From assembly GCA_964592365.1 (NCBI GenBank), contig CAZQDL010000001.1:146989-210988 (forward strand): a DNA stretch of 64,000 nucleotides, given 5' to 3'. This DNA comes from an uncultured Candidatus Saccharibacteria bacterium. Lineage in GTDB: Bacteria > Patescibacteriota > Minisyncoccia > Phycocordibacterales > UBA1006. How positions within the stretch are numbered: the first letter of the stretch is position 1; each line of letters begins with the position of its first letter. Below the pieces are notes generated by a model. That model searched no databases, was not told the origin of the DNA, and saw only the letters and a list, made by a program, of their open reading frames with translations. Positions 4,269-56,291 of this stretch are shown piece after piece. The position numbers and the translations under genes are program-made.

Positions 4269-4284
4269 GTGATATATTTTACCT

Positions 4285-6119: not shown

Positions 6120-7832
6120 ATGCATATTGCTCATCAGATACAAGAATATATTCATCAAACACTTAATTCGTTAGGAATTAATATTGATTTTGATGTGCAT
6201 CTAGAACATCCAGGAGATCTATCACATGGAGACTATTCAACAAATGTTGCTATGGTACTTGCACCAAGACTACAAAGAAAGCCACAAGATATTGCTCTTC
6301 AGATTGTGAGTAATATGAATGAATCCGTTCATCCTCATATTGAAAAGGTTGAGGTTGCTGGTCCTGGATTTATTAATATTTTTCTTAAAAAAACATTTTT
6401 CAATCAAGAATTAAATACCATCTTAGAACAAGGAGATAATTATGGAGGTCTTGATACTTATAAAGACAAAAACATTCTTGTAGAACATTCTTCTCCAAAC
6501 CTTTTTAAAGCATTTCATATTGGTCATTTGATGAATAATACGATTGGTGAATCGCTTGCTCGTTTGTATACCAAAGCAGGAGCTTCAGTTACAACCATTT
6601 CATATCCTTCAGATGTTTCTTTGGGTATTGGAAAAGCAGTATGGCAGCTATTACAGTATGGTGTTGAAAAGCTCGAAGAACATAAAAGCATTGAGGATAA
6701 GATACATTTTCTTGGCGAGTGCTATGTTAATGGAACAAGGGCATATGATGATGATCCTACTCTTGAAAAAGAAATTCGAGAGATCACTCAAGATATATAT
6801 CAATCACGAACCCACTTAGATTCATACCAGGCATACCTTCTTGGAAAAGACATTAATCTTGAATATTTTAAAGGGGTAACAAGTCGTTTGGGATCTCACT
6901 TTGATGGATATATATATGAATCAGAGGCAGGAGAAATTGGAAAAGATATAGTTCTTGAAAACACCCCCTTAATATATTCAGAATCTGATGGAGCTGTTAT
7001 ATATGAAGGAGAAAAATATGGACTCCACACTCGAGTGTTTATCAACAAAGAAGGTAATCCAACATATGAAGCAAAAGATACTGGTCTTTTAAAGATTAAG
7101 TTTGATAGATATGCACCTGATCTTTCTTTGTTGGTTACTGATAATCAGCAAGCAGAGTATTACAAGGTGGTACTTGATGCTGCTGGGAAGATAAATAAAG
7201 AATGGAAGGAGAAAACCATTCATGCAACTCATGGGAGAATGCAGTTTAAGGGTCAGAAGATGTCTTCTCGTTTAGGAAATACTCCTTTAGTTACCGACAT
7301 TTTAAATGAAGTTAATGAAGAGGTAAGGCAACGTGCAAGTGATAGAGAGTTGAGTGACCAGCAATCAGATGTTATTTCAATTGGAGCATTGAAATATGCT
7401 ATTTTAAGAACACAAGCTGGAAAAGATATTAATTTTGATCCTGATACCTCACTTTCTTTTGAAGGAGATTCCGGTCCATACTTACAATATACTTATGCTC
7501 GATGTATTTCCCTTATCGAGAAAGCAGATAGTTTTGGTATTGATGTAAAGAATTCTCATATGCGTCCAATTGATATGGACTTAACAAATCTAGAACGCTG
7601 TATGTATCGATTTCCAGAAGTCATCGGTACTGCAGTTAATCAAAGACATCCACATCATATCGTTACTTATATCACTGAATTAGCACAGCACTTCAATACT
7701 TGGTACGGAAATACAAAAATTGTTGATGATTCAAATGAGGCCTCTTACAAAATTATGATGGTAAGAGGAATGGCACATATATTGAAAAACAGTCTTTGGC
7801 TTTTAGGAATCGATGCTCCTGAAAAAATGTAA
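6120..7832 (+). CDS. argS: arginyl-tRNA synthetase
   Basis: Class I HIGH motif (FHIGHLMNN), MSSRLG (KMSK-like), DALR-type anticodon-binding C-terminus ending in M. Confidence 0.9.
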   Translation: MHIAHQIQEYIHQTLNSLGINIDFDVHLEHPGDLSHGDYSTNVAMVLAPRLQRKPQDIALQIVSNMNESVHPHIEKVEVAGPGFINIFLKKTFFNQELNTILEQGDNYGGLDTYKDKNILVEHSSPNLFKAFHIGHLMNNTIGESLARLYTKAGASVTTISYPSDVSLGIGKAVWQLLQYGVEKLEEHKSIEDKIHFLGECYVNGTRAYDDDPTLEKEIREITQDIYQSRTHLDSYQAYLLGKDINLEYFKGVTSRLGSHFDGYIYESEAGEIGKDIVLENTPLIYSESDGAVIYEGEKYGLHTRVFINKEGNPTYEAKDTGLLKIKFDRYAPDLSLLVTDNQQAEYYKVVLDAAGKINKEWKEKTIHATHGRMQFKGQKMSSRLGNTPLVTDILNEVNEEVRQRASDRELSDQQSDVISIGALKYAILRTQAGKDINFDPDTSLSFEGDSGPYLQYTYARCISLIEKADSFGIDVKNSHMRPIDMDLTNLERCMYRFPEVIGTAVNQRHPHHIVTYITELAQHFNTWYGNTKIVDDSNEASYKIMMVRGMAHILKNSLWLLGIDAPEKM

Positions 7833-7856
7833 ACTACGTTGACACGTGGTTTTTTT
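7831..7856 (+). terminator. rho-independent terminator after argS
   Basis: AAACTACGT-TGAC-ACGTGGTTT hairpin plus a T-run; overlaps the stop codon. Confidence 0.6.
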
Positions 7857-7891
7857 AATATATAAGTAAAATAAATCAAAAAACATAATAT

Positions 7892-8335
7892 ATGAGCATC
7901 TTTAATCTTAAATACAATGACATGGTTGATACATCAGGTCAGTGCAAAATCTTCCTGTATGATTACATGGATGACAATCTTTCTACTAATCCAGATTTTC
8001 AGCAAATCAATTTTCTGTTACAGGGGTTAGGGGTTGATGAAATAGACATCATACCAACATATTCAGAAAATATTTTTGACAAGATTGTTACAAAAATAGA
8101 AGAAGTAATTCCTGGATATTGGGTTCTTGTGATTACCTCTTCAAGGTTCCGTAATGATAAAAAAAGTTATCAAGAACTTCAGAAAAAATTTTCAAAGGCA
8201 CCTGTTATTTTTGTAAGAAGATCACATAGAAATTTTCAAACAGCTGATATTCTTCAAAAAAATTATCGATACTTTCATGTTAAAAAGAAAATATCAATAC
8301 TAAAAACACTATTCAAAAATCTTGGAGTGATATAA
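7892..8335 (+). CDS. hypothetical protein (147 aa)
   Basis: Intact ORF between argS and ileS with its own terminator. No motif recognised. Confidence 0.5.
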   Translation: MSIFNLKYNDMVDTSGQCKIFLYDYMDDNLSTNPDFQQINFLLQGLGVDEIDIIPTYSENIFDKIVTKIEEVIPGYWVLVITSSRFRNDKKSYQELQKKFSKAPVIFVRRSHRNFQTADILQKNYRYFHVKKKISILKTLFKNLGVI

Positions 8336-8360
8336 AAAACCGTATTTATACGGTTTTTAT
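8334..8360 (+). terminator. rho-independent terminator
   Basis: A-run, CCGTA-TTTA-TACGG, T-run. Confidence 0.65.
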
Positions 8361-8438
8361 TTACACCCCCAAATATTCTGATAAGATTTGTATATGCATA
8401 AAGCAATCATTATTTCAATTATTCAATACACCGCATAA

Positions 8439-8500
8439 GTATTCGGGTTCTTGAATGATGAATAAAGAGCACTCCCGAATACGGAGTGCTATTTTATTTA
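8439..8500 (+). promoter_or_regulatory. candidate transcription attenuator in the ileS leader (mutually exclusive antiterminator/terminator)
   Basis: The terminator has an AGCACTCC/GGAGTGCT stem (8468-8490) and an ATTTTATTT tail. The upstream GTATTCGGG (8439-8447) is a perfect 9-nt complement of CCCGAATAC (8474-8482), which overlaps the terminator's left arm and loop. Confidence 0.45.
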
Positions 8501-8530
8501 CAATTACCGTTCCGTGGTACCATAACAAAT

Positions 8531-11500
8531 ATGAACAATAGTTTAAAAAAATCAGAAACAGCACATGCTGAAGAACGTATTCTCTCTTTTTGGAAGGATC
8601 AGAATATTTTTGAAAAAAGCCTTCTTGAAAAAACAAAAGGTGATTTTGTTTTCTATGACGGACCTCCTTTTGCAACAGGTCTTCCACACTATGGACACCT
8701 CTTAGCTGGTACTATTAAAGATATCATTCCACGATATATGACCATGAAGGGACACCATGTTTCTCGTACCTGGGGTTGGGATTGCCATGGATTACCTATT
8801 GAAAATCTTGTTGAAAAAGAACTTGGTCTTTCAAGTAAGAAAGATATCGAAGAGTATGGAATAGCAACTTTTAATCAAAAGGCTAGAGACTCAGTACTGC
8901 GATATGAACAAGAATGGAAACAGTATGTTCCGCGTTCAGGACGCTTCATTAATATGGACCAACCATATATGTCAATGCACACGAACTATATGGAATCAGT
9001 ATGGTGGATTTTTAGTCAGTTGCACAAAAAACAACTAACGAAACAGGGATTTAAACCAATGCACCTATGTCCTCGTTGTGAGACCACCCTTGCTAACTTT
9101 GAGGTAAATCAAGGGTATATGGATGTTACTGATATTTCTGCAACGGTTTCTTTTCAATTAGTGGATGAACCAGAAACACATTTTCTTGCTTGGACAACAA
9201 CCCCTTGGACGCTTCCAGGAAATGTTGCTTTGGCTGTTGGAAAAGATATTGAATATGTAAAAGTTTCAGAAGGTGATCTTAACTATATCGTTGCAAAAAA
9301 ATTATGTGATTTAGTATTTGAAGGAAGGACATATGAAATAGTAGATACTATGAAAGGATCTGATTTGATAGGAAAGAAATATCAACCAGTTTTCGATTAC
9401 TTCAAGAAAAATAATATTGAACATAGTGAACGTGGATGGCAGGTATATGAAGCTGACTTCGTGACAACTGAAGAGGGAACAGGGATTGTTCATATAGCTC
9501 CTGCCTTTGGTAGTGATGACATGGAATTAGGGGAAATACATAGACTCCCATTTATTCAACACGTTGGAAGGAATGGTGTTTTTATTGATTCATTTGCTGA
9601 AGGTTTTAAGGGAATGAAAGTAAAGGCAAAAGGAGATTGGATGACTGCTGATATTGAAATTATTAAATGGCTTGCTCACAACGGAAAACTATTTAGCAAG
9701 AAGAAATTAGTTCATAGCTATCCTCATTGTTGGAGATGCGATACACCGCTTTTGAATTACGCAACTTCATCTTGGTTTATCGATGTTCCTTCAATGAAAG
9801 AACGATTAATGGAACTTAATGCAAAGGTTAATTGGGTACCAGAACATGTTGGAGAGGGTAGATTTGGAAAATGGTTAGAGGGAGCTCGTGATTGGGCACT
9901 TTCTAGATCACGATTTTGGGGTACCCCTCTTCCTGTTTGGCAAAATGCATCAGCTACTGAGACCTTGGTAATTGGTTCCATTGAGGAATTGTTATCCCAT
10001 ATCCCATCTTCAGGTAATACATATATTGGAGTTCGCCATGGAGAATCAGTTTCAAATGCTACTGGAGAAATTAATGCAAAACGCGAATTACATAATCCAT
10101 TAACTGAAACAGGTAGGAAACAAGCTGAAAGTGAAGCACAGAAACTAAAAGATATGGCTATTGATTATCTCTTTGTTTCTCCATTTCAACGAACCATGGA
10201 AACAGCTTCAATTATCAAAGAACAACTAGGTCTTTCAGACTCACAAATCATCGTTGATGAACGACTTCGTGAGCGTAATCCTGGAGATTCATGGGAAGGA
10301 AAACAATGGCATGATGCACATACACAAGAAGAACGTGAACGTGATGGGGACTTTTGGAATTATAAACTGGAAGACAATGCTGAATCTATCGGTGATATAT
10401 ATAAGCGGGTAATGCCATTTCTGTTTGAACTTGAGGAAACCTATGCCGGAAAAAATATTGTTATCATTACCCATGGTGGGGTACTCAAAACCATTTTGTT
10501 TGGGTTAAAGCATCATGGTGATCATACAAAGGCACATGCTTTCTTTAATGAGACAGCACTTCCTTCAAATGCTGAATTGATTTCTCTTCCGTTCAAAAAA
10601 TTTCCTCACAATGATGAATATGAAATTGACTTACATAGACCATATCTAGATACCGTTACACTAATTGATAGTAACGGGGAAGAAATGAAGCTCTTAGGAG
10701 ATGTGTTTGATGTGTGGTTTGATTCTGGATCAATGCCATATGCCCAAGTTCACTATCCTTTTGAGAATAAAGATTTGTTTGAAGAACAGAGGTTCCCAGC
10801 TCAATTCATTGCAGAAGGGCTTGACCAGACACGAGGTTGGTTCTATGTTCTTTCGGTATTAGGAGTAGCACTTTTTGATACTATTCCGTTTGAAAACGTA
10901 ATAGTAAATGGTTTGATACTGGCAGAAGATGGAAAGAAAATGTCTAAATCATTAAATAACTATCCAGATCCACATGAAATGTTTAATTCAGTTGGAGCTG
11001 ATGCGATAAGACTGTATCTAATTGCATCGCCTGCAGTACGAGGTGAAGAATTTGCTTTCTCTGAAAAGTCAGTAAGAGATGTAAGTAGTAAGGTAATGGG
11101 TCGTATGAGAAATGTGGTTAACCTTTATACCACCTACAAAGCTAACGTTGACCATACCTATTCATTTGATTCTCAGAATGTTCTTGATATATGGATGCAG
11201 GCAAGATTAATTGAACTTCTTCATGATGTTCAATCAGGTCTTGAAGTATATCAATTAGATAAAGCAGCTCGTCCAATATTTGATTTCGTTGATGATTTTT
11301 CGACATGGTACGTACGTAGAAGTCGTGACCGATATAAGATGGGGGAGGAAAAAGATATGCACGATGCTCTTGCAACCACAAGAATGTCGCTTAAAGTTTT
11401 TGCACAAATATCAGCACCATTTGTTCCATTCCTCTCAGAGGAAATATGGCAAATGCTCAGGGAAGATGATTCTGAACTTGAAGAATCAGTTCACCTATCT

Positions 11501-12001
11501 TCTTGGCCAACTTTAGAATTAAACGAAGGTCATATTAGCGCTTTGGAAAGTATGAAGCGTGTTCGTGAGATTGTATCAGAAGGATTGCAAATGAGGTCTG
11601 ATTCTGGAATAAAAGTTAGGCAACCATTATCTTCATTACAAGCTCCGTTAGAAGGACTTCATGAGGAATATCACCTACTTATCACCGACGAACTAAATGT
11701 AAAAAAACTCGTTTCTGGAGATAAGTATGTTCTTGATACTGAAGTAACCAACGAACTTCAATTAGAGGGAGACGTTCGAGAGTTACTTCGTTTCATACAA
11801 ATATTTAGAAAGGATCAGGGGCTTGATGCTCATGATACTATTACCCTAAGTATATCTACTTCAGATGAAGGAAGAAATATTATTGAATCTCATATACAAG
11901 AGATTAAAAATACAGCTTCTATAAATGAAATCGTATTTCAGGAAAACGAAGGAACAACTGTTGAAGTAAGAGATGTTAGTTTTACGCTTAGTATTATGTA
12001 A
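8531..12001 (+). CDS. ileS: isoleucyl-tRNA synthetase with an inserted histidine-phosphatase (PGAM-like) domain; ORF track starts at 8486 but MNNSLKK at 8531 is the likely start
   Basis: HYGH, PHCWRC and KMSKS motifs. A roughly 200-aa block (about nt 10000-10640) has RHGE, LTETGRKQA, SPFQRTMETA and ITHGG motifs of the histidine phosphatase superfamily. Confidence 0.9.
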   Translation: MNNSLKKSETAHAEERILSFWKDQNIFEKSLLEKTKGDFVFYDGPPFATGLPHYGHLLAGTIKDIIPRYMTMKGHHVSRTWGWDCHGLPIENLVEKELGLSSKKDIEEYGIATFNQKARDSVLRYEQEWKQYVPRSGRFINMDQPYMSMHTNYMESVWWIFSQLHKKQLTKQGFKPMHLCPRCETTLANFEVNQGYMDVTDISATVSFQLVDEPETHFLAWTTTPWTLPGNVALAVGKDIEYVKVSEGDLNYIVAKKLCDLVFEGRTYEIVDTMKGSDLIGKKYQPVFDYFKKNNIEHSERGWQVYEADFVTTEEGTGIVHIAPAFGSDDMELGEIHRLPFIQHVGRNGVFIDSFAEGFKGMKVKAKGDWMTADIEIIKWLAHNGKLFSKKKLVHSYPHCWRCDTPLLNYATSSWFIDVPSMKERLMELNAKVNWVPEHVGEGRFGKWLEGARDWALSRSRFWGTPLPVWQNASATETLVIGSIEELLSHIPSSGNTYIGVRHGESVSNATGEINAKRELHNPLTETGRKQAESEAQKLKDMAIDYLFVSPFQRTMETASIIKEQLGLSDSQIIVDERLRERNPGDSWEGKQWHDAHTQEERERDGDFWNYKLEDNAESIGDIYKRVMPFLFELEETYAGKNIVIITHGGVLKTILFGLKHHGDHTKAHAFFNETALPSNAELISLPFKKFPHNDEYEIDLHRPYLDTVTLIDSNGEEMKLLGDVFDVWFDSGSMPYAQVHYPFENKDLFEEQRFPAQFIAEGLDQTRGWFYVLSVLGVALFDTIPFENVIVNGLILAEDGKKMSKSLNNYPDPHEMFNSVGADAIRLYLIASPAVRGEEFAFSEKSVRDVSSKVMGRMRNVVNLYTTYKANVDHTYSFDSQNVLDIWMQARLIELLHDVQSGLEVYQLDKAARPIFDFVDDFSTWYVRRSRDRYKMGEEKDMHDALATTRMSLKVFAQISAPFVPFLSEEIWQMLREDDSELEESVHLSSWPTLELNEGHISALESMKRVREIVSEGLQMRSDSGIKVRQPLSSLQAPLEGLHEEYHLLITDELNVKKLVSGDKYVLDTEVTNELQLEGDVRELLRFIQIFRKDQGLDAHDTITLSISTSDEGRNIIESHIQEIKNTASINEIVFQENEGTTVEVRDVSFTLSIM

Positions 12002-12031
12002 AAAAACCACGAGAATATCTCGTGGTTTTTA
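12001..12031. terminator. bidirectional rho-independent terminator (ileS and the convergent 12032..12376 gene)
   Basis: A6-ACCACGAGA-ATA-TCTCGTGGT-T5, perfect 9-bp stem. Confidence 0.75.
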
Positions 12032-12376
12032 CTATGCACTTAGTGCCTGTGTGTGGTGGTATAAAATGTTTTTTACCTTTTCGCAAATCATTTCATCAAC
12101 TTTTTCCATTTCTTGGTCATGACTTAGAATTAAGTTCTGAGTTTTTGAAAACCGAGAAAATCTTTGGATTTTTTGAAATGGTTTAATCTTTTTTAAGTGT
12201 AAAGATTCTTTAATTTTTTCTATAAATTCTTCTTCACTTGAAGATTTTACAAAAATTACTTCAAAAGTTCTTTTACCCCCTATTTTTTGAATAACAGATA
12301 ATCTTAATTCTTTTCCTTTTTTGCAAAGGAAAACTTTTGATTCGTGATCGCTTAATTTCAATTTGGTGTTTACCAT
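12032..12376 (-). CDS. hypothetical protein (114 aa)
   Basis: Intact ORF convergent with ileS. No motif recognised. Confidence 0.5.
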   Translation of the reverse strand: MVNTKLKLSDHESKVFLCKKGKELRLSVIQKIGGKRTFEVIFVKSSSEEEFIEKIKESLHLKKIKPFQKIQRFSRFSKTQNLILSHDQEMEKVDEMICEKVKNILYHHTQALSA

Positions 12377-12461
12377 TTTTTAAGTTTTAGTTAGGAAATT
12401 ATTTTACCTAAATATATAAGTGGAGTGTAATTTGTCAATTTTTGGGTATACTCAATTCATG

Positions 12462-13028
12462 TCACATGCCATATATCAAACACCTGCCGTGATATTGAAA
12501 ACTCGAAATTATCAAGAGTCAAATAAGCTTCTTGTTATGTATACAAGAGATTTTGGTTTGGTATATGTAGCAGCCCAATCTCTTCGATCTGCTCAGTCAA
12601 AGATGAAATACCATACCTTGCTGTATAGTTTGGTTGAAATTGATGTTGTTAAAGGAAAAGACCTTTGGAGATTAACAGGAATTCATCAACAAATATCTTC
12701 CTTATCTTTTGTTCAAAAGAATTGGTTTCCTCTTCTTGAAAAGTTTGCATCACTTCTTGTTCGCTTGATTCCAGGCGAAGAGCCTCATTTGGAAGTTTGG
12801 AATGAATTAGAAAATCTTTATACGCTTATTGAAAATGATGAATATCATGAATCGATTGAGTATATTCTTATCGCAAGAATATTGTACTACTTGGGATATT
12901 GGTCGAGTAACGAACCAATTATCCTTGATGAAAATCCATATACAGAAGGTATGTATCAGTGGGTACAGGAGCACAAAAAGGAACTTGTTGTAAAGATAAA
13001 TCAAGGATTAAATGATTCACAGCTGTGA
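12462..13028 (+). CDS. recO: DNA repair protein RecO, short form without the zinc-finger C-terminus (ORF track start 12420)
   Basis: N-terminal OB-fold pattern (AVILKTRNYQESNKLLVMYTRDFGLVYVAAQSLRS...) resembling RecO. A TATACT -10 lies 11 nt upstream of the 12462 ATG. Confidence 0.55.
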   Translation, partial: SHAIYQTPAVILKTRNYQESNKLLVMYTRDFGLVYVAAQSLRSAQSKMKYHTLLYSLVEIDVVKGKDLWRLTGIHQQISSLSFVQKNWFPLLEKFASLLVRLIPGEEPHLEVWNELENLYTLIENDEYHESIEYILIARILYYLGYWSSNEPIILDENPYTEGMYQWVQEHKKELVVKINQGLNDSQL

Positions 13029-13057
13029 GACACGGTATTGTTTGATATACTATTGAT

Positions 13058-18484: not shown

Positions 18485-18546
18485 GGGAATAGTTTACCAT
18501 GAATAGGAATAATGCTGATACGTGCTGAACGTGATATGATAGAAAT

Positions 18547-23566: not shown

Positions 23567-23575
23567 TGGTATACT
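23567..23575 (+). promoter_or_regulatory. extended -10 promoter (TGgTATACT) 7 nt upstream of the ssb ATG; near-leaderless
   Basis: cgTGgTATACTaatattATG. Confidence 0.4.
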
Positions 23576-23581
23576 AATATT

Positions 23582-37506: not shown

Positions 37507-37540
37507 AATAAAACAAAGCTTAAGCTTTGTTTTATTTTTG
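37507..37540 (+). terminator. rho-independent terminator after pilin 3
   Basis: Perfect 13-bp palindrome TAAAACAAAGCTT|AAGCTTTGTTTTA followed by TTTTT. Confidence 0.7.
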
Positions 37541-37547
37541 TTATACT
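37539..37547 (+). promoter_or_regulatory. extended -10 promoter (TGtTATACT) 7 nt upstream of the pilin 4 ATG (leaderless)
   Basis: tTGTTATACTaacaatATG. Confidence 0.4.
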
Positions 37548-37553
37548 AACAAT

Positions 37554-56276: not shown

Positions 56277-56285
56277 TGGTATAAT
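56277..56285 (+). promoter_or_regulatory. extended -10 promoter (TGgTATAAT) 7 nt upstream of ATG 56292 (leaderless)
   Basis: aTGGTATAATactaatATG; divergent from the recombinase gene. Confidence 0.45.
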
Positions 56286-56291
56286 ACTAAT

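What the first reader, a model, noticed from the sequence alone, without database searches (positions are those of the whole stretch)
8439..8530. Mutually exclusive antiterminator/terminator structure in the ileS leader
The leader contains an intrinsic terminator (AGCACTCC / GGAGTGCT stem with a U-rich tail) just 30 nt before the preferred ileS start. A 9-nt segment 30 nt upstream (GTATTCGGG, 8439-8447) is perfectly complementary to CCCGAATAC (8474-8482). That segment comprises the last two bases of the terminator's 5' arm plus its loop, so the two pairings cannot coexist. This is the architecture of a transcription attenuator or riboswitch. It is too short to be a canonical T-box and no T-box consensus precedes the terminator. 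It may therefore be a compact or unrecognised regulatory RNA controlling an aminoacyl-tRNA synthetase.
Basis: seen in the sequence. Interest (0 to 1): 0.5.

Follow-up and report, generated by a model that had tools for sequence, protein, structure and literature searches.

The report
Isoleucine leader-peptide attenuator before ileS
The hairpin switch in front of the isoleucyl-tRNA synthetase gene is real, but it is most likely read by a ribosome translating a tiny, isoleucine-rich upstream reading frame (the textbook attenuation mechanism), here found conserved in a small clade of ultra-small CPR/Patescibacteria bacteria.

Summary
Hairpin 8468-8490 has a U-tail, and GTATTCGGG (8439-8447) is the exact complement of CCCGAATAC (8474-8482).

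A 14-codon ORF (8394-8438, MHKAIIISIIQYTA) has five Ile codons, and its stop codon abuts the 9-mer.

The organism is a Paceibacteria-like CPR bacterium. Seven other ileS loci from metagenomes carry the same module:
- a strong promoter 6-7 nt before the short ORF's start, implying a leaderless mRNA;
- an "IIIS/TII..TA-stop" peptide whose Ile codons change only synonymously;
- a CGGG box ending 10-12 nt after the first base of the stop codon;
- a terminator whose stem sequence differs between loci while pairing is kept.

Folding gives the three classical states. Untranslated RNA forms a 1:2 hairpin plus the terminator. A ribosome stalled on Ile codons allows the antiterminator. A ribosome at the stop codon leaves only the terminator.

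No T-box or riboswitch model matches. The only weak Rfam hits are Phe and Thr leader-peptide attenuators.

Caveat: a second leaderless-type promoter lies between the terminator and ileS in every locus, so the attenuator probably controls only part of ileS transcription.

Verdict: a new member of a known kind, with no experimental evidence. I found no report of one in this phylum or for ileS.

The parts
8360..8365 (+). P1 -35 hexamer TTTACA
   Evidence: Promoter scan gives TTTACA-16 nt-TAAGAT. TTTACA, TTTACT or TTTGCA sits at the same position in all eight loci.
8379..8387 (+). P1 extended -10 (TGaTAAGAT), 6 nt before the leader ATG
   Evidence: TG lies at -15 from the ATG, the geometry seen at many genes of this window that lack a Shine-Dalgarno sequence. 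It is conserved with 6-7 nt spacing in all eight loci. The leaderless start is inferred, not shown.
8394..8438 (+). Leader-peptide ORF MHKAIIISIIQYTA, stop TAA 8436-8438
   Evidence: Translation. Homologous ORFs occur in seven other loci.
8406..8423 (+). Regulatory codon run ATC ATT ATT TCA ATT ATT (Ile-Ile-Ile-Ser-Ile-Ile)
   Evidence: The five Ile codons are invariant as amino acids in eight loci and change only ATT<->ATC, while flanking codons vary freely.
8407..8433 (+). Region 1: Ile codons and ACCG, which pair with region 2 when no ribosome is present
   Evidence: MFE of the untranslated leader. The RNAalifold consensus keeps 16-21:51-56 and CCG:CGG.
8439..8461 (+). Region 2: GUAUUCGGG box (8439-8447), UUCUU (8448-8452) and UUGAAUGAUGA (8451-8461)
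   Evidence: Pairs with region 1 in the full-length fold, or with region 3 in nascent RNA when a ribosome is stalled. CGGG ends 11 nt after the first base of the stop codon.
8465..8482 (+). Region 3: AAGAG, 5' arm of the terminator and loop CCCGAAUAC (3' strand of the antiterminator)
   Evidence: The nascent-RNA fold to 8482 gives a 14-bp two-part antiterminator of -13.6 to -13.8 kcal/mol.
8468..8499 (+). Intrinsic terminator: stem 8468-8475/8483-8490, loop 8476-8482, U-tail 8491-8499
   Evidence: -12.2 kcal/mol. A hairpin plus U-tail is kept in all eight loci with five different stem sequences.
8515..8523 (+). P2: putative second, ileS-proximal extended -10 (TGgTACCAT), 7 nt before the ileS ATG
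   Evidence: TG lies at -16, the same class as other genes of the window. An equivalent element is present in all eight loci and in relatives that lack the leader.
8531..12001 (+). ileS (type-2-like IleRS, 1156 aa, with an inserted His_Phos_1 domain)
   Evidence: Pfam hits tRNA-synt_1, Anticodon_1 and His_Phos_1.

Best explanation
This is a classical ribosome-mediated (leader-peptide) transcription attenuator that senses charged tRNA-Ile and controls read-through into ileS.

Proposed sequence of events:
- Transcription starts at a strong promoter P1 (-35 TTTACA, extended -10), about 6-7 nt before the ATG at 8394. The 14-codon leader ORF is therefore probably translated as a leaderless mRNA.
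- When Ile-tRNA is plentiful, the ribosome runs to the stop codon (8436-8438). Its footprint covers the GUAUUCGGG box, so the terminator (8468-8499) forms and transcription stops.
- When Ile-tRNA is scarce, the ribosome stalls on the Ile-Ile-Ile-Ser-Ile-Ile run (8406-8423). This masks region 1 but leaves the box free, 22-24 nt downstream. The box and UUCUU then pair with AAGAG...CCCGAAUAC. This sequesters both ends of the terminator's 5' arm and its loop before the 3' arm is made, and RNA polymerase continues into ileS.
- Without any translation, region 1 pairs with region 2 and the terminator forms (default off).

Shown: the sequence elements, their conservation and covariation, and the predicted energies.
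Inferred: the transcription start, leaderless translation, actual termination, and the response to isoleucine.
For: 1. Leader ORF MHKAIIISIIQYTA, with its stop codon abutting the antiterminator strand.
2. Eight ileS loci carry homologous ORFs of the form x(2-4)-I-I-I-S/T-I-I-x-x-T-A-stop. They come from divergent CPR genomes, with IleRS 65-72% identical to the window's over the full length for the four full-length proteins retrieved. The five Ile codons change only ATT<->ATC, while flanking codons change amino acid freely.
3. The module stays with ileS although the upstream gene differs: hypothetical genes, argS, a DUF2207 gene, or a reverse transcriptase gene.
4. Geometry is constant. The last Ile codon lies 22-24 nt before CGGG, and CGGG ends 10-12 nt after the first base of the stop codon.
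5. Constrained folding gives the same three states in all eight loci. The untranslated RNA forms a long 1:2 hairpin plus the terminator. The antiterminator is -7.1 to -13.8 kcal/mol when the ribosome is on the Ile codons, and 0 to -5.8 when it is at the stop codon. The terminator is -12.2 to -20.9.
6. The antiterminator is more stable than with region 2 shuffled in six of eight loci (z from -1.8 to -4.4).
7. Covariation:
   - Terminator stems differ in sequence but keep pairing; 7 of 18 consensus pairs show double-sided changes.
   - UUCGGG:CCCGAA in the window and L081 becomes CUCGGG:CCCGAG in L091 and L093.
   - The Ser UCA to Thr ACU switch in L001 and L088 is matched by GAUUGAAA to AAUAGUAA in region 2.
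8. An Ile-rich frame like this occurs about 3 times per 64 kb counting both strands, so about 0.003 would be expected in a 140-nt leader.
9. The best Rfam sub-threshold hits are full-length matches to leader-peptide attenuators: Phe_leader 24.8 bits and Thr_leader 20.4 bits in the window, and Thr_leader 28.9 bits in L001.
10. P1 has the geometry of the leaderless genes of this genome.
Against: - There are no experimental data of any kind (transcript ends, termination, response to Ile).
- A second promoter-like element (P2, extended -10) sits between terminator and ileS in all eight loci, 6-7 nt before the ileS ATG in seven of them. This is exactly the arrangement in relatives without the module. 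ileS can therefore probably be transcribed independently of the attenuator, and the regulated fraction is unknown.
- The read-through mRNA would present the ileS AUG internally without a Shine-Dalgarno sequence. The same is true of most genes in this window.
- At equilibrium the terminator is as stable as or more stable than the antiterminator everywhere, so the switch must be kinetic.
- In L090 and L092 the antiterminator is no better than shuffles (z -1.0 and -0.6).
- Three members of the same subclade (L086, L087, L089) lack the module.
- L081 uses GTG as the leader start.
- The eight sequences are related, so their agreement is not eight independent observations.
Confidence: 0.75

Rival explanations
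1. Autonomous small transcription unit. P1, the short ORF and the terminator form a stand-alone gene, producing a roughly 100-nt RNA and/or a 14-aa peptide that perhaps acts in trans. ileS is expressed only from P2 as a leaderless mRNA. The hairpin would then simply end that unit and insulate P2.
For: P2 is conserved in all eight loci, with the same 6-7 nt spacing to the ileS ATG (19 nt in L001) that is seen in relatives lacking the module. This genome relies heavily on leaderless promoters and almost lacks Shine-Dalgarno sequences. Trans-acting attenuator RNAs and peptides are known elsewhere, for example rnTrpL/peTrpL of Sinorhizobium (abstracts listed).
Against: The unit is found only immediately upstream of ileS, whatever the upstream neighbour. 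Its codon bias matches the amino acid of the downstream synthetase. Only the Ile codons and RNA-pairing positions are conserved, while other residues vary freely, which is typical of leader peptides and not of functional peptides. The conserved antiterminator geometry has no purpose if termination is meant to be constitutive.
Confidence: 0.12
2. Riboswitch or other ligand- or tRNA-binding leader RNA. The alternative pairing would be set by direct binding of a metabolite or of uncharged tRNA-Ile, without translation.
For: The mutually exclusive pairings exist. ileS is T-box-regulated in Firmicutes and Actinobacteria (PMC1262725).
Against: No T-box or riboswitch family matches the leader, even at E<=10 in the window or E<=1 in the seven other loci. 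The leader is about 100 nt, and most of it is occupied by the ORF and by AU-rich pairing, leaving no conserved aptamer-like core. Synonymous-only variation at the Ile codons and the constant distances from stop codon to box point to a translating ribosome as the sensor.
Confidence: 0.04
3. No regulation. The hairpin is a plain terminator or insulator left over in the intergenic region, and the Ile-rich ORF and 9-nt complementarity are by-products of AT-rich sequence.
For: Ile-rich frames occur at the rate expected from base composition in this 35% G+C window (3 observed, 3.15 in shuffles). Many relatives have an ordinary upstream-gene terminator followed by the ileS promoter.
Against: The upstream gene already has its own terminator at 8337-8360. 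The ORF, box, spacing and alternative pairings are conserved in eight divergent loci, with synonymous-only changes at the Ile codons and compensatory changes in the helices.
Confidence: 0.04

Closest known systems
pheST attenuator of E. coli and other gamma-proteobacteria (pheM leader peptide)
   Same: An aminoacyl-tRNA synthetase gene is controlled by a short leader ORF rich in codons for the cognate amino acid, followed by alternative antiterminator and terminator hairpins. PMC1262725 cites it as the model for attenuated synthetase genes. The mechanism is from established knowledge.
   Different: Different amino acid and gene (Ile/ileS) and a different phylum, with no sequence relationship. 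Here the leader ORF seems to be leaderless, and a second promoter lies downstream of the terminator.
Rfam leader-peptide attenuators Thr_leader (RF00506) and Phe_leader (RF01859); also the ilv operon leaders
   Same: Overall layout: ORF with regulatory codons, then 1:2, 2:3 and 3:4 pairings. The covariance models align end to end with the window leader (8392-8498) and with L001. The E. coli thr and ilv leaders also use Ile codons (my own knowledge).
   Different: Scores of 20-29 bits are far below the gathering score of 55, so this is not a member. Those leaders control biosynthetic operons in Proteobacteria, not a synthetase in CPR.
Predicted leader-peptide attenuators of trpS and leuS in Streptomyces, and of hisS paralogues in bacilli
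   Same: Synthetase genes outside Proteobacteria with candidate cognate-codon leader peptides plus terminators (PMC1262725; PMC2965389).
   Different: Different amino acids and phyla. Those are also computational predictions only.
Leaderless poly-cysteine short-ORF attenuators of mycobacteria (Canestrari et al., bioRxiv 10.1101/834739)
   Same: A leaderless short ORF with a run of codons for one amino acid acts as a ribosome-stalling sensor for downstream genes.
   Different: [quoted passage not shown] Here the output structure is an intrinsic terminator, which is transcriptional control.
T-box leaders of ileS (Firmicutes; translational T-boxes in Actinobacteria)
   Same: Same regulated gene and the same physiological signal (tRNA-Ile charging), using alternative structures in the leader (PMC1262725).
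   Different: The sensor is a direct tRNA-RNA contact in a leader of about 200 nt or more with conserved T-box motifs. None of these is present here.

Membership tests
Ribosome-mediated (leader-peptide) transcription attenuator | Short ORF in the leader with clustered codons for the amino acid that is sensed | tested here: met
   ORF 8394-8438 has 5 Ile in 6 consecutive codons. The same holds in seven other loci.
Ribosome-mediated (leader-peptide) transcription attenuator | Intrinsic terminator between the leader ORF and the structural gene | tested here: met
   A hairpin plus U-tail is predicted in all eight loci, -12.2 to -20.9 kcal/mol. Activity in vivo was not tested.
Ribosome-mediated (leader-peptide) transcription attenuator | Antiterminator that overlaps the terminator's 5' arm, and a region 1 that can sequester region 2 | tested here: met
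   Constrained folds; RNAalifold consensus. The antiterminator is weak in L090 and L092.
Ribosome-mediated (leader-peptide) transcription attenuator | Spacing such that a ribosome at the stop codon masks region 2 while a ribosome on the regulatory codons does not | tested here: met
   CGGG ends 10-12 nt after the first base of the stop codon and starts 22-24 nt after the last Ile codon, in all eight loci. The footprint size is taken from general knowledge.
Ribosome-mediated (leader-peptide) transcription attenuator | Selection on translation of the regulatory codons (synonymous-only change) rather than on the peptide | tested here: met
   only ATT<->ATC at the five Ile codons, while neighbouring residues vary.
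Ribosome-mediated (leader-peptide) transcription attenuator | Translation start signal for the leader ORF and coupling to transcription | tested here: inconclusive
   There is no Shine-Dalgarno sequence. The start lies 6-7 nt after an extended -10, as in many genes of the window, which implies leaderless initiation. One locus uses GTG. The transcription start has not been mapped.
Ribosome-mediated (leader-peptide) transcription attenuator | Read-through that increases when the cognate charged tRNA is limiting | not testable with these tools
   Needs a reporter assay, in vitro assay or transcriptome data.
T-box riboswitch | Match to the T-box covariance model (stem I, specifier, conserved T-box sequence) | tested here: not met
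   No hit at the gathering score in the window, at E<=10 in 8300-8600, or at E<=1 in seven homologous loci.
Rfam Thr_leader (RF00506) / Phe_leader (RF01859) | Score at or above the family gathering score (55 bits) | tested here: not met
   20.4, 24.8 and 28.9 bits. This is a resemblance in layout only.

The most novel reading that the evidence does not exclude
The P1, Ile-ORF and terminator module may be an autonomous isoleucine-sensing unit layered on a constitutively transcribed, leaderless ileS. Its output would then be something other than simple read-through mRNA. One possibility is regulated transcriptional interference with P2. Another is a terminated RNA or peptide of about 100 nt that acts in trans, as rnTrpL/peTrpL do. 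Either would be a new regulatory logic built from leaderless parts in genome-reduced CPR bacteria.
Probability: 0.1. Interest if true: 0.65.

Novelty: new member of a known kind. Interest (0 to 1): 0.45.

Why it matters
CPR/Patescibacteria are uncultured, genome-reduced bacteria that cannot make most amino acids, and very little is known about how they regulate genes. A conserved Ile-codon leader peptide in front of ileS would show three things:
- They use classical transcription-translation coupling to sense tRNA charging.
- An attenuator can be built on a leaderless short ORF with a transcriptional rather than translational output.
- Synthetase genes that are T-box-controlled in Firmicutes and Actinobacteria have acquired a different sensor here.

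It also gives a compact element of about 140 nt that is easy to test. The mechanism itself is textbook, so the gain is in its distribution and evolution, not in principle.

Tried and rejected
1. T-box, riboswitch or any Rfam family: nothing reached the gathering score. In the permissive scans the leader's best-scoring hits were Phe and Thr leader attenuators, far below the family cut-off, and no T-box or riboswitch matched the leader.
2. A scan of 80 genome loci encoding the closest IleRS relatives for Ile-rich short ORFs found the module only in L001. The other relatives examined (seven loci) have an upstream-gene terminator, or none, and then a promoter directly abutting ileS.
3. A DNA-pattern scan of JGI metagenome contigs for the Ile run plus the GTATTCGGG box gave four hits. 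All were ATT or low-complexity repeats, with no homologues.
4. Protein searches with N-terminal fragments list only proteins of similar length to the query. The full-length query was needed to find the closest relatives.
5. Equilibrium folding of the full leader with a stalled ribosome always keeps the terminator. The antiterminator appears only in nascent RNA truncated before the 3' arm, so the switch has to be kinetic.
6. A formal pair count for the antiterminator on the MAFFT alignment was abandoned, because the 3' strand is out of register in L090, L001 and L088. I tabulated the pairs per sequence instead.
7. A search for further attenuators of this type in the 64-kb window (extended -10, short ORF, terminator) found only the ileS leader outside coding regions.
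8. The alternative ORF 8455-8541 (28 aa), which overlaps the terminator, is not conserved: in L090 the corresponding frame stops after 8 codons.
9. The minus-strand reading of the hairpin as a terminator was rejected, because no convergent gene ends there.

Full report
**1. The observation**

The sequence is as described.
- AGCACTCC (8468-8475) and GGAGTGCT (8483-8490) flank the loop CGAATAC (8476-8482) and are followed by ATTTTATTT.
- GTATTCGGG (8439-8447) is the perfect complement of CCCGAATAC (8474-8482), which is the last two bases of the 5' arm plus the loop.
- The consensus scan flags the hairpin as terminator-like: 2 sites in 8100-8700 against 0.3 expected.
- The ileS start is ATG 8531, judged from homologous N-termini. 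Pfam confirms an isoleucyl-tRNA synthetase.
- The upstream gene ends at 8335 and has its own terminator (AAAAACCGTA-TTTA-TACGGTTTTT, 8337-8360). The second hairpin is therefore not that gene's terminator.

**2.

Between the two hairpins lies a 14-codon ORF, 8394-8438, encoding MHKAIIISIIQYTA. Five of six consecutive codons (8406-8423) are Ile. The stop codon TAA (8436-8438) directly abuts the 9-nt antiterminator strand.

Just upstream is a good promoter: TTTACA (8360-8365), a 16-nt spacer, and the extended -10 TGaTAAGAT (8379-8387). The -10 ends 6 nt before the ATG.

In this 64-kb window many genes have TGnTAnnnT with the TG at -15 or -16 from their ATG, and almost none has a Shine-Dalgarno sequence. 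The organism therefore appears to use leaderless mRNAs widely, and the short ORF has exactly that geometry. This step is an inference.

**3. Organism and relatives**

The closest IleRS genes are all from CPR/Patescibacteria metagenome-assembled genomes (Paceibacteria, Nomurabacteria and similar).

Of 80 genome loci, only the closest (L001) has an Ile-rich short ORF upstream of ileS. In the seven other genome loci examined in detail, ileS follows an extended -10 within a few bases (6-9 nt where it is clearest), sometimes preceded by an upstream terminator.

Protein searches followed by contig look-ups gave six more carriers: L081, L088, L090, L091, L092 and L093. The leader peptides are:

| Locus | Leader peptide |
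|---|---|
| window | MHKAIIISIIQYTA |
| L090 | MHTAIIISIIRRTA |
| L081 | (GTG start) KHSIIISIIQLTA |
| L091 | MKRNIIISIIKHTA |
| L093 | MKRIIISIIKHTA |
| L092 | MKRIIISIIKNTA |
| L001 | MHINAIIITIIETTA |
| L088 | MQTNAIIITIIETTA |

- The four carriers retrieved as full-length proteins (L090-L093) have IleRS 65-72% identical to the window's over the full length. Over the first 170 residues, the carriers compared are 70-86% identical to one another.
- The gene upstream of the module differs between loci: hypothetical genes, argS, a DUF2207 gene, or a reverse transcriptase. The module is therefore linked to ileS.
- Three members of the same subclade (L086, L087, L089) lack it.
- A DNA-pattern scan of JGI metagenomes found only chance hits.

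**4. Signature of a translated sensor**

- Across the eight leaders, the five Ile codons vary only between ATT and ATC.
- The residues before the run and the two after it change freely.
- ACC GCA (Thr-Ala) before the stop is fixed at the nucleotide level, apart from one synonymous GCT.
- Frames with at least 5 Ile in 6 codons occur three times in the window on both strands, which matches the shuffle expectation of 3.15. About 0.003 would be expected by chance in a 140-nt leader.

**5. RNA states**

Three states recur in all eight loci.
- **Untranslated leader.** The Ile codons and ACCG (region 1) pair with the segment after the stop codon (region 2), next to the terminator (regions 3:4). RNAalifold on the eight sequences recovers the terminator, a CCG:CGG helix and part of 1:2. 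Seven of 18 pairs show changes on both sides.
- **Ribosome stalled on the Ile codons.** Nascent RNA was truncated before the 3' arm, with a ribosome masking up to 13 nt beyond the last Ile codon. It folds into a two-part antiterminator. The outer helix is (U)UCGGG:CCCGA(A). The inner helix pairs a CUUUU-type tract with AAGA or GGAG at the start of the terminator's 5' arm. Energies are -7.1 to -13.8 kcal/mol.
- **Ribosome at the stop codon.** Only 0 to -5.8 kcal/mol of that structure remains. The terminators are -12.2 to -20.9 kcal/mol.

Further points:
- Shuffling region 2 gives z-scores of -3.3, -1.0, -2.1, -3.3, -4.4, -0.6, -2.5 and -1.8. Six of eight are clearly better than chance; two are not.
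- At equilibrium the terminator always wins, so the choice has to be kinetic, as in classical attenuators.
- Distances are constant: 22-24 nt from the last Ile codon to CGGG, and 10-12 nt from the first base of the stop codon to the end of CGGG.

**6. Covariation**

- Five different terminator stems all keep perfect pairing: AGCACUCC, ACAAAGAGCACUC, AAGACGCCC, AAGAACACACC and GGAGCGCCC.
- The outer antiterminator pair changes from U:A (window, L081) to C:G (L091, L093).
- The Ser codon UCA is replaced by the Thr codon ACU in L001 and L088. The complementary stretch in region 2 changes with it, from GAUUGAAA to AAUAGUAA.
- The CCC at the junction of 5' arm and loop is invariant while the rest of the stem varies. 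That fits a double constraint from both the terminator and the antiterminator.

**7. Comparison with known families**

- No Rfam family reaches its gathering score in the leader.
- No T-box appears at permissive thresholds in any of the eight leaders.
- The best sub-threshold matches are end-to-end alignments to leader-peptide attenuators: Phe_leader 24.8 bits and Thr_leader 20.4 bits in the window, and Thr_leader 28.9 bits in L001, against a gathering score of 55. This is a similarity of layout, not membership.
- In the literature searched, ileS is reported to have T-boxes in Actinobacteria. Leader-peptide attenuators of synthetase genes are reported or predicted for pheST, for trpS and leuS in Streptomyces (PMC1262725), and for hisS paralogues in bacilli (PMC2965389).
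- Leaderless cognate-codon short ORFs act as translational attenuators in mycobacteria (10.1101/834739).
- No paper in the library links CPR/Patescibacteria with attenuators or leader peptides.

**8. Main caveat**

Between the terminator and ileS, every carrier has a second -10-like element. In the window it is TGgTACCAT at 8515-8523, 7 nt before ATG 8531. The other carriers have TAAAAT (TACGAT in L090), with the TG extension in all but L091, 6-7 nt before the ATG, or 19 nt in L001. This is the same arrangement as in relatives without the module, so it is probably the ancestral leaderless ileS promoter and is still active.

The attenuator would then add regulated read-through from the stronger P1 (which has a -35 as well as an extended -10) to a basal P2 level. 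The size of the effect, and how well the internal ileS AUG is translated on the longer mRNA, are unknown. This also leaves room for the rival reading that the module is an autonomous unit.

**9. Verdict**

- The attenuator interpretation is right in architecture, but the sensor is a translated Ile-rich leader ORF, not a riboswitch-like RNA.
- This is a new member of a well-known kind (ribosome-mediated attenuation). Three features are uncommon: the regulated gene is ileS, the host is a CPR lineage, and the leader ORF appears to be leaderless.
- Confidence in the mechanism is about 0.75. All functional steps are inferred from sequence, folding and comparison.

Noticed in passing
window 8531-12001 (IleRS residues 501-660, about 10031-10510): The IleRS carries a complete histidine-phosphatase (His_Phos_1, PF00300, E 3e-35) domain inserted inside the catalytic domain. 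The same insertion is detected in 70 of the 80 Patescibacteria ileS loci, and PF00300 is listed for all 120 best full-length database relatives. A search of the paper library for 'isoleucyl-tRNA synthetase', 'histidine phosphatase' and 'Patescibacteria' found no paper describing it. This may deserve its own study.
   Followed up: partly
whole window, e.g. 4270-4284, 13043-13057, 18532-18546, 23567-23581, 37539-37553, 56277-56291: Many genes have an extended -10 (TGnTAnnnT) with the TG exactly 15-16 nt before the ATG. Shine-Dalgarno motifs at a functional distance are almost absent. This suggests widespread leaderless transcription and translation in this CPR genome.
   Followed up: partly
L093 1-1314: A diversity-generating-retroelement-like pair (a bAvd accessory gene and an RVT_1 reverse transcriptase) lies immediately upstream of the ileS leader module in this relative.
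   Followed up: no
L087 1501-3732: In this relative, which lacks the leader and has argS directly upstream, ileS is called as two overlapping ORFs (243 aa and 978 aa). This suggests a frameshift or an assembly error.
   Followed up: no
window 6120-13028 and L090-L093: The gene order is conserved around ileS: argS, an optional small hypothetical gene, ileS, a small reverse-strand ORF of about 114 aa, then recO. The 147-aa ORF 7892-8335 between argS and ileS has no Pfam match.
   Followed up: no
window 8337-8360: An A-tract / hairpin / T-tract terminator (AAAAACCGTA-TTTA-TACGGTTTTT) ends the upstream gene and overlaps the -35 of P1. Its stem has too few G-C pairs for the consensus scan, which did not report it.
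   Followed up: no
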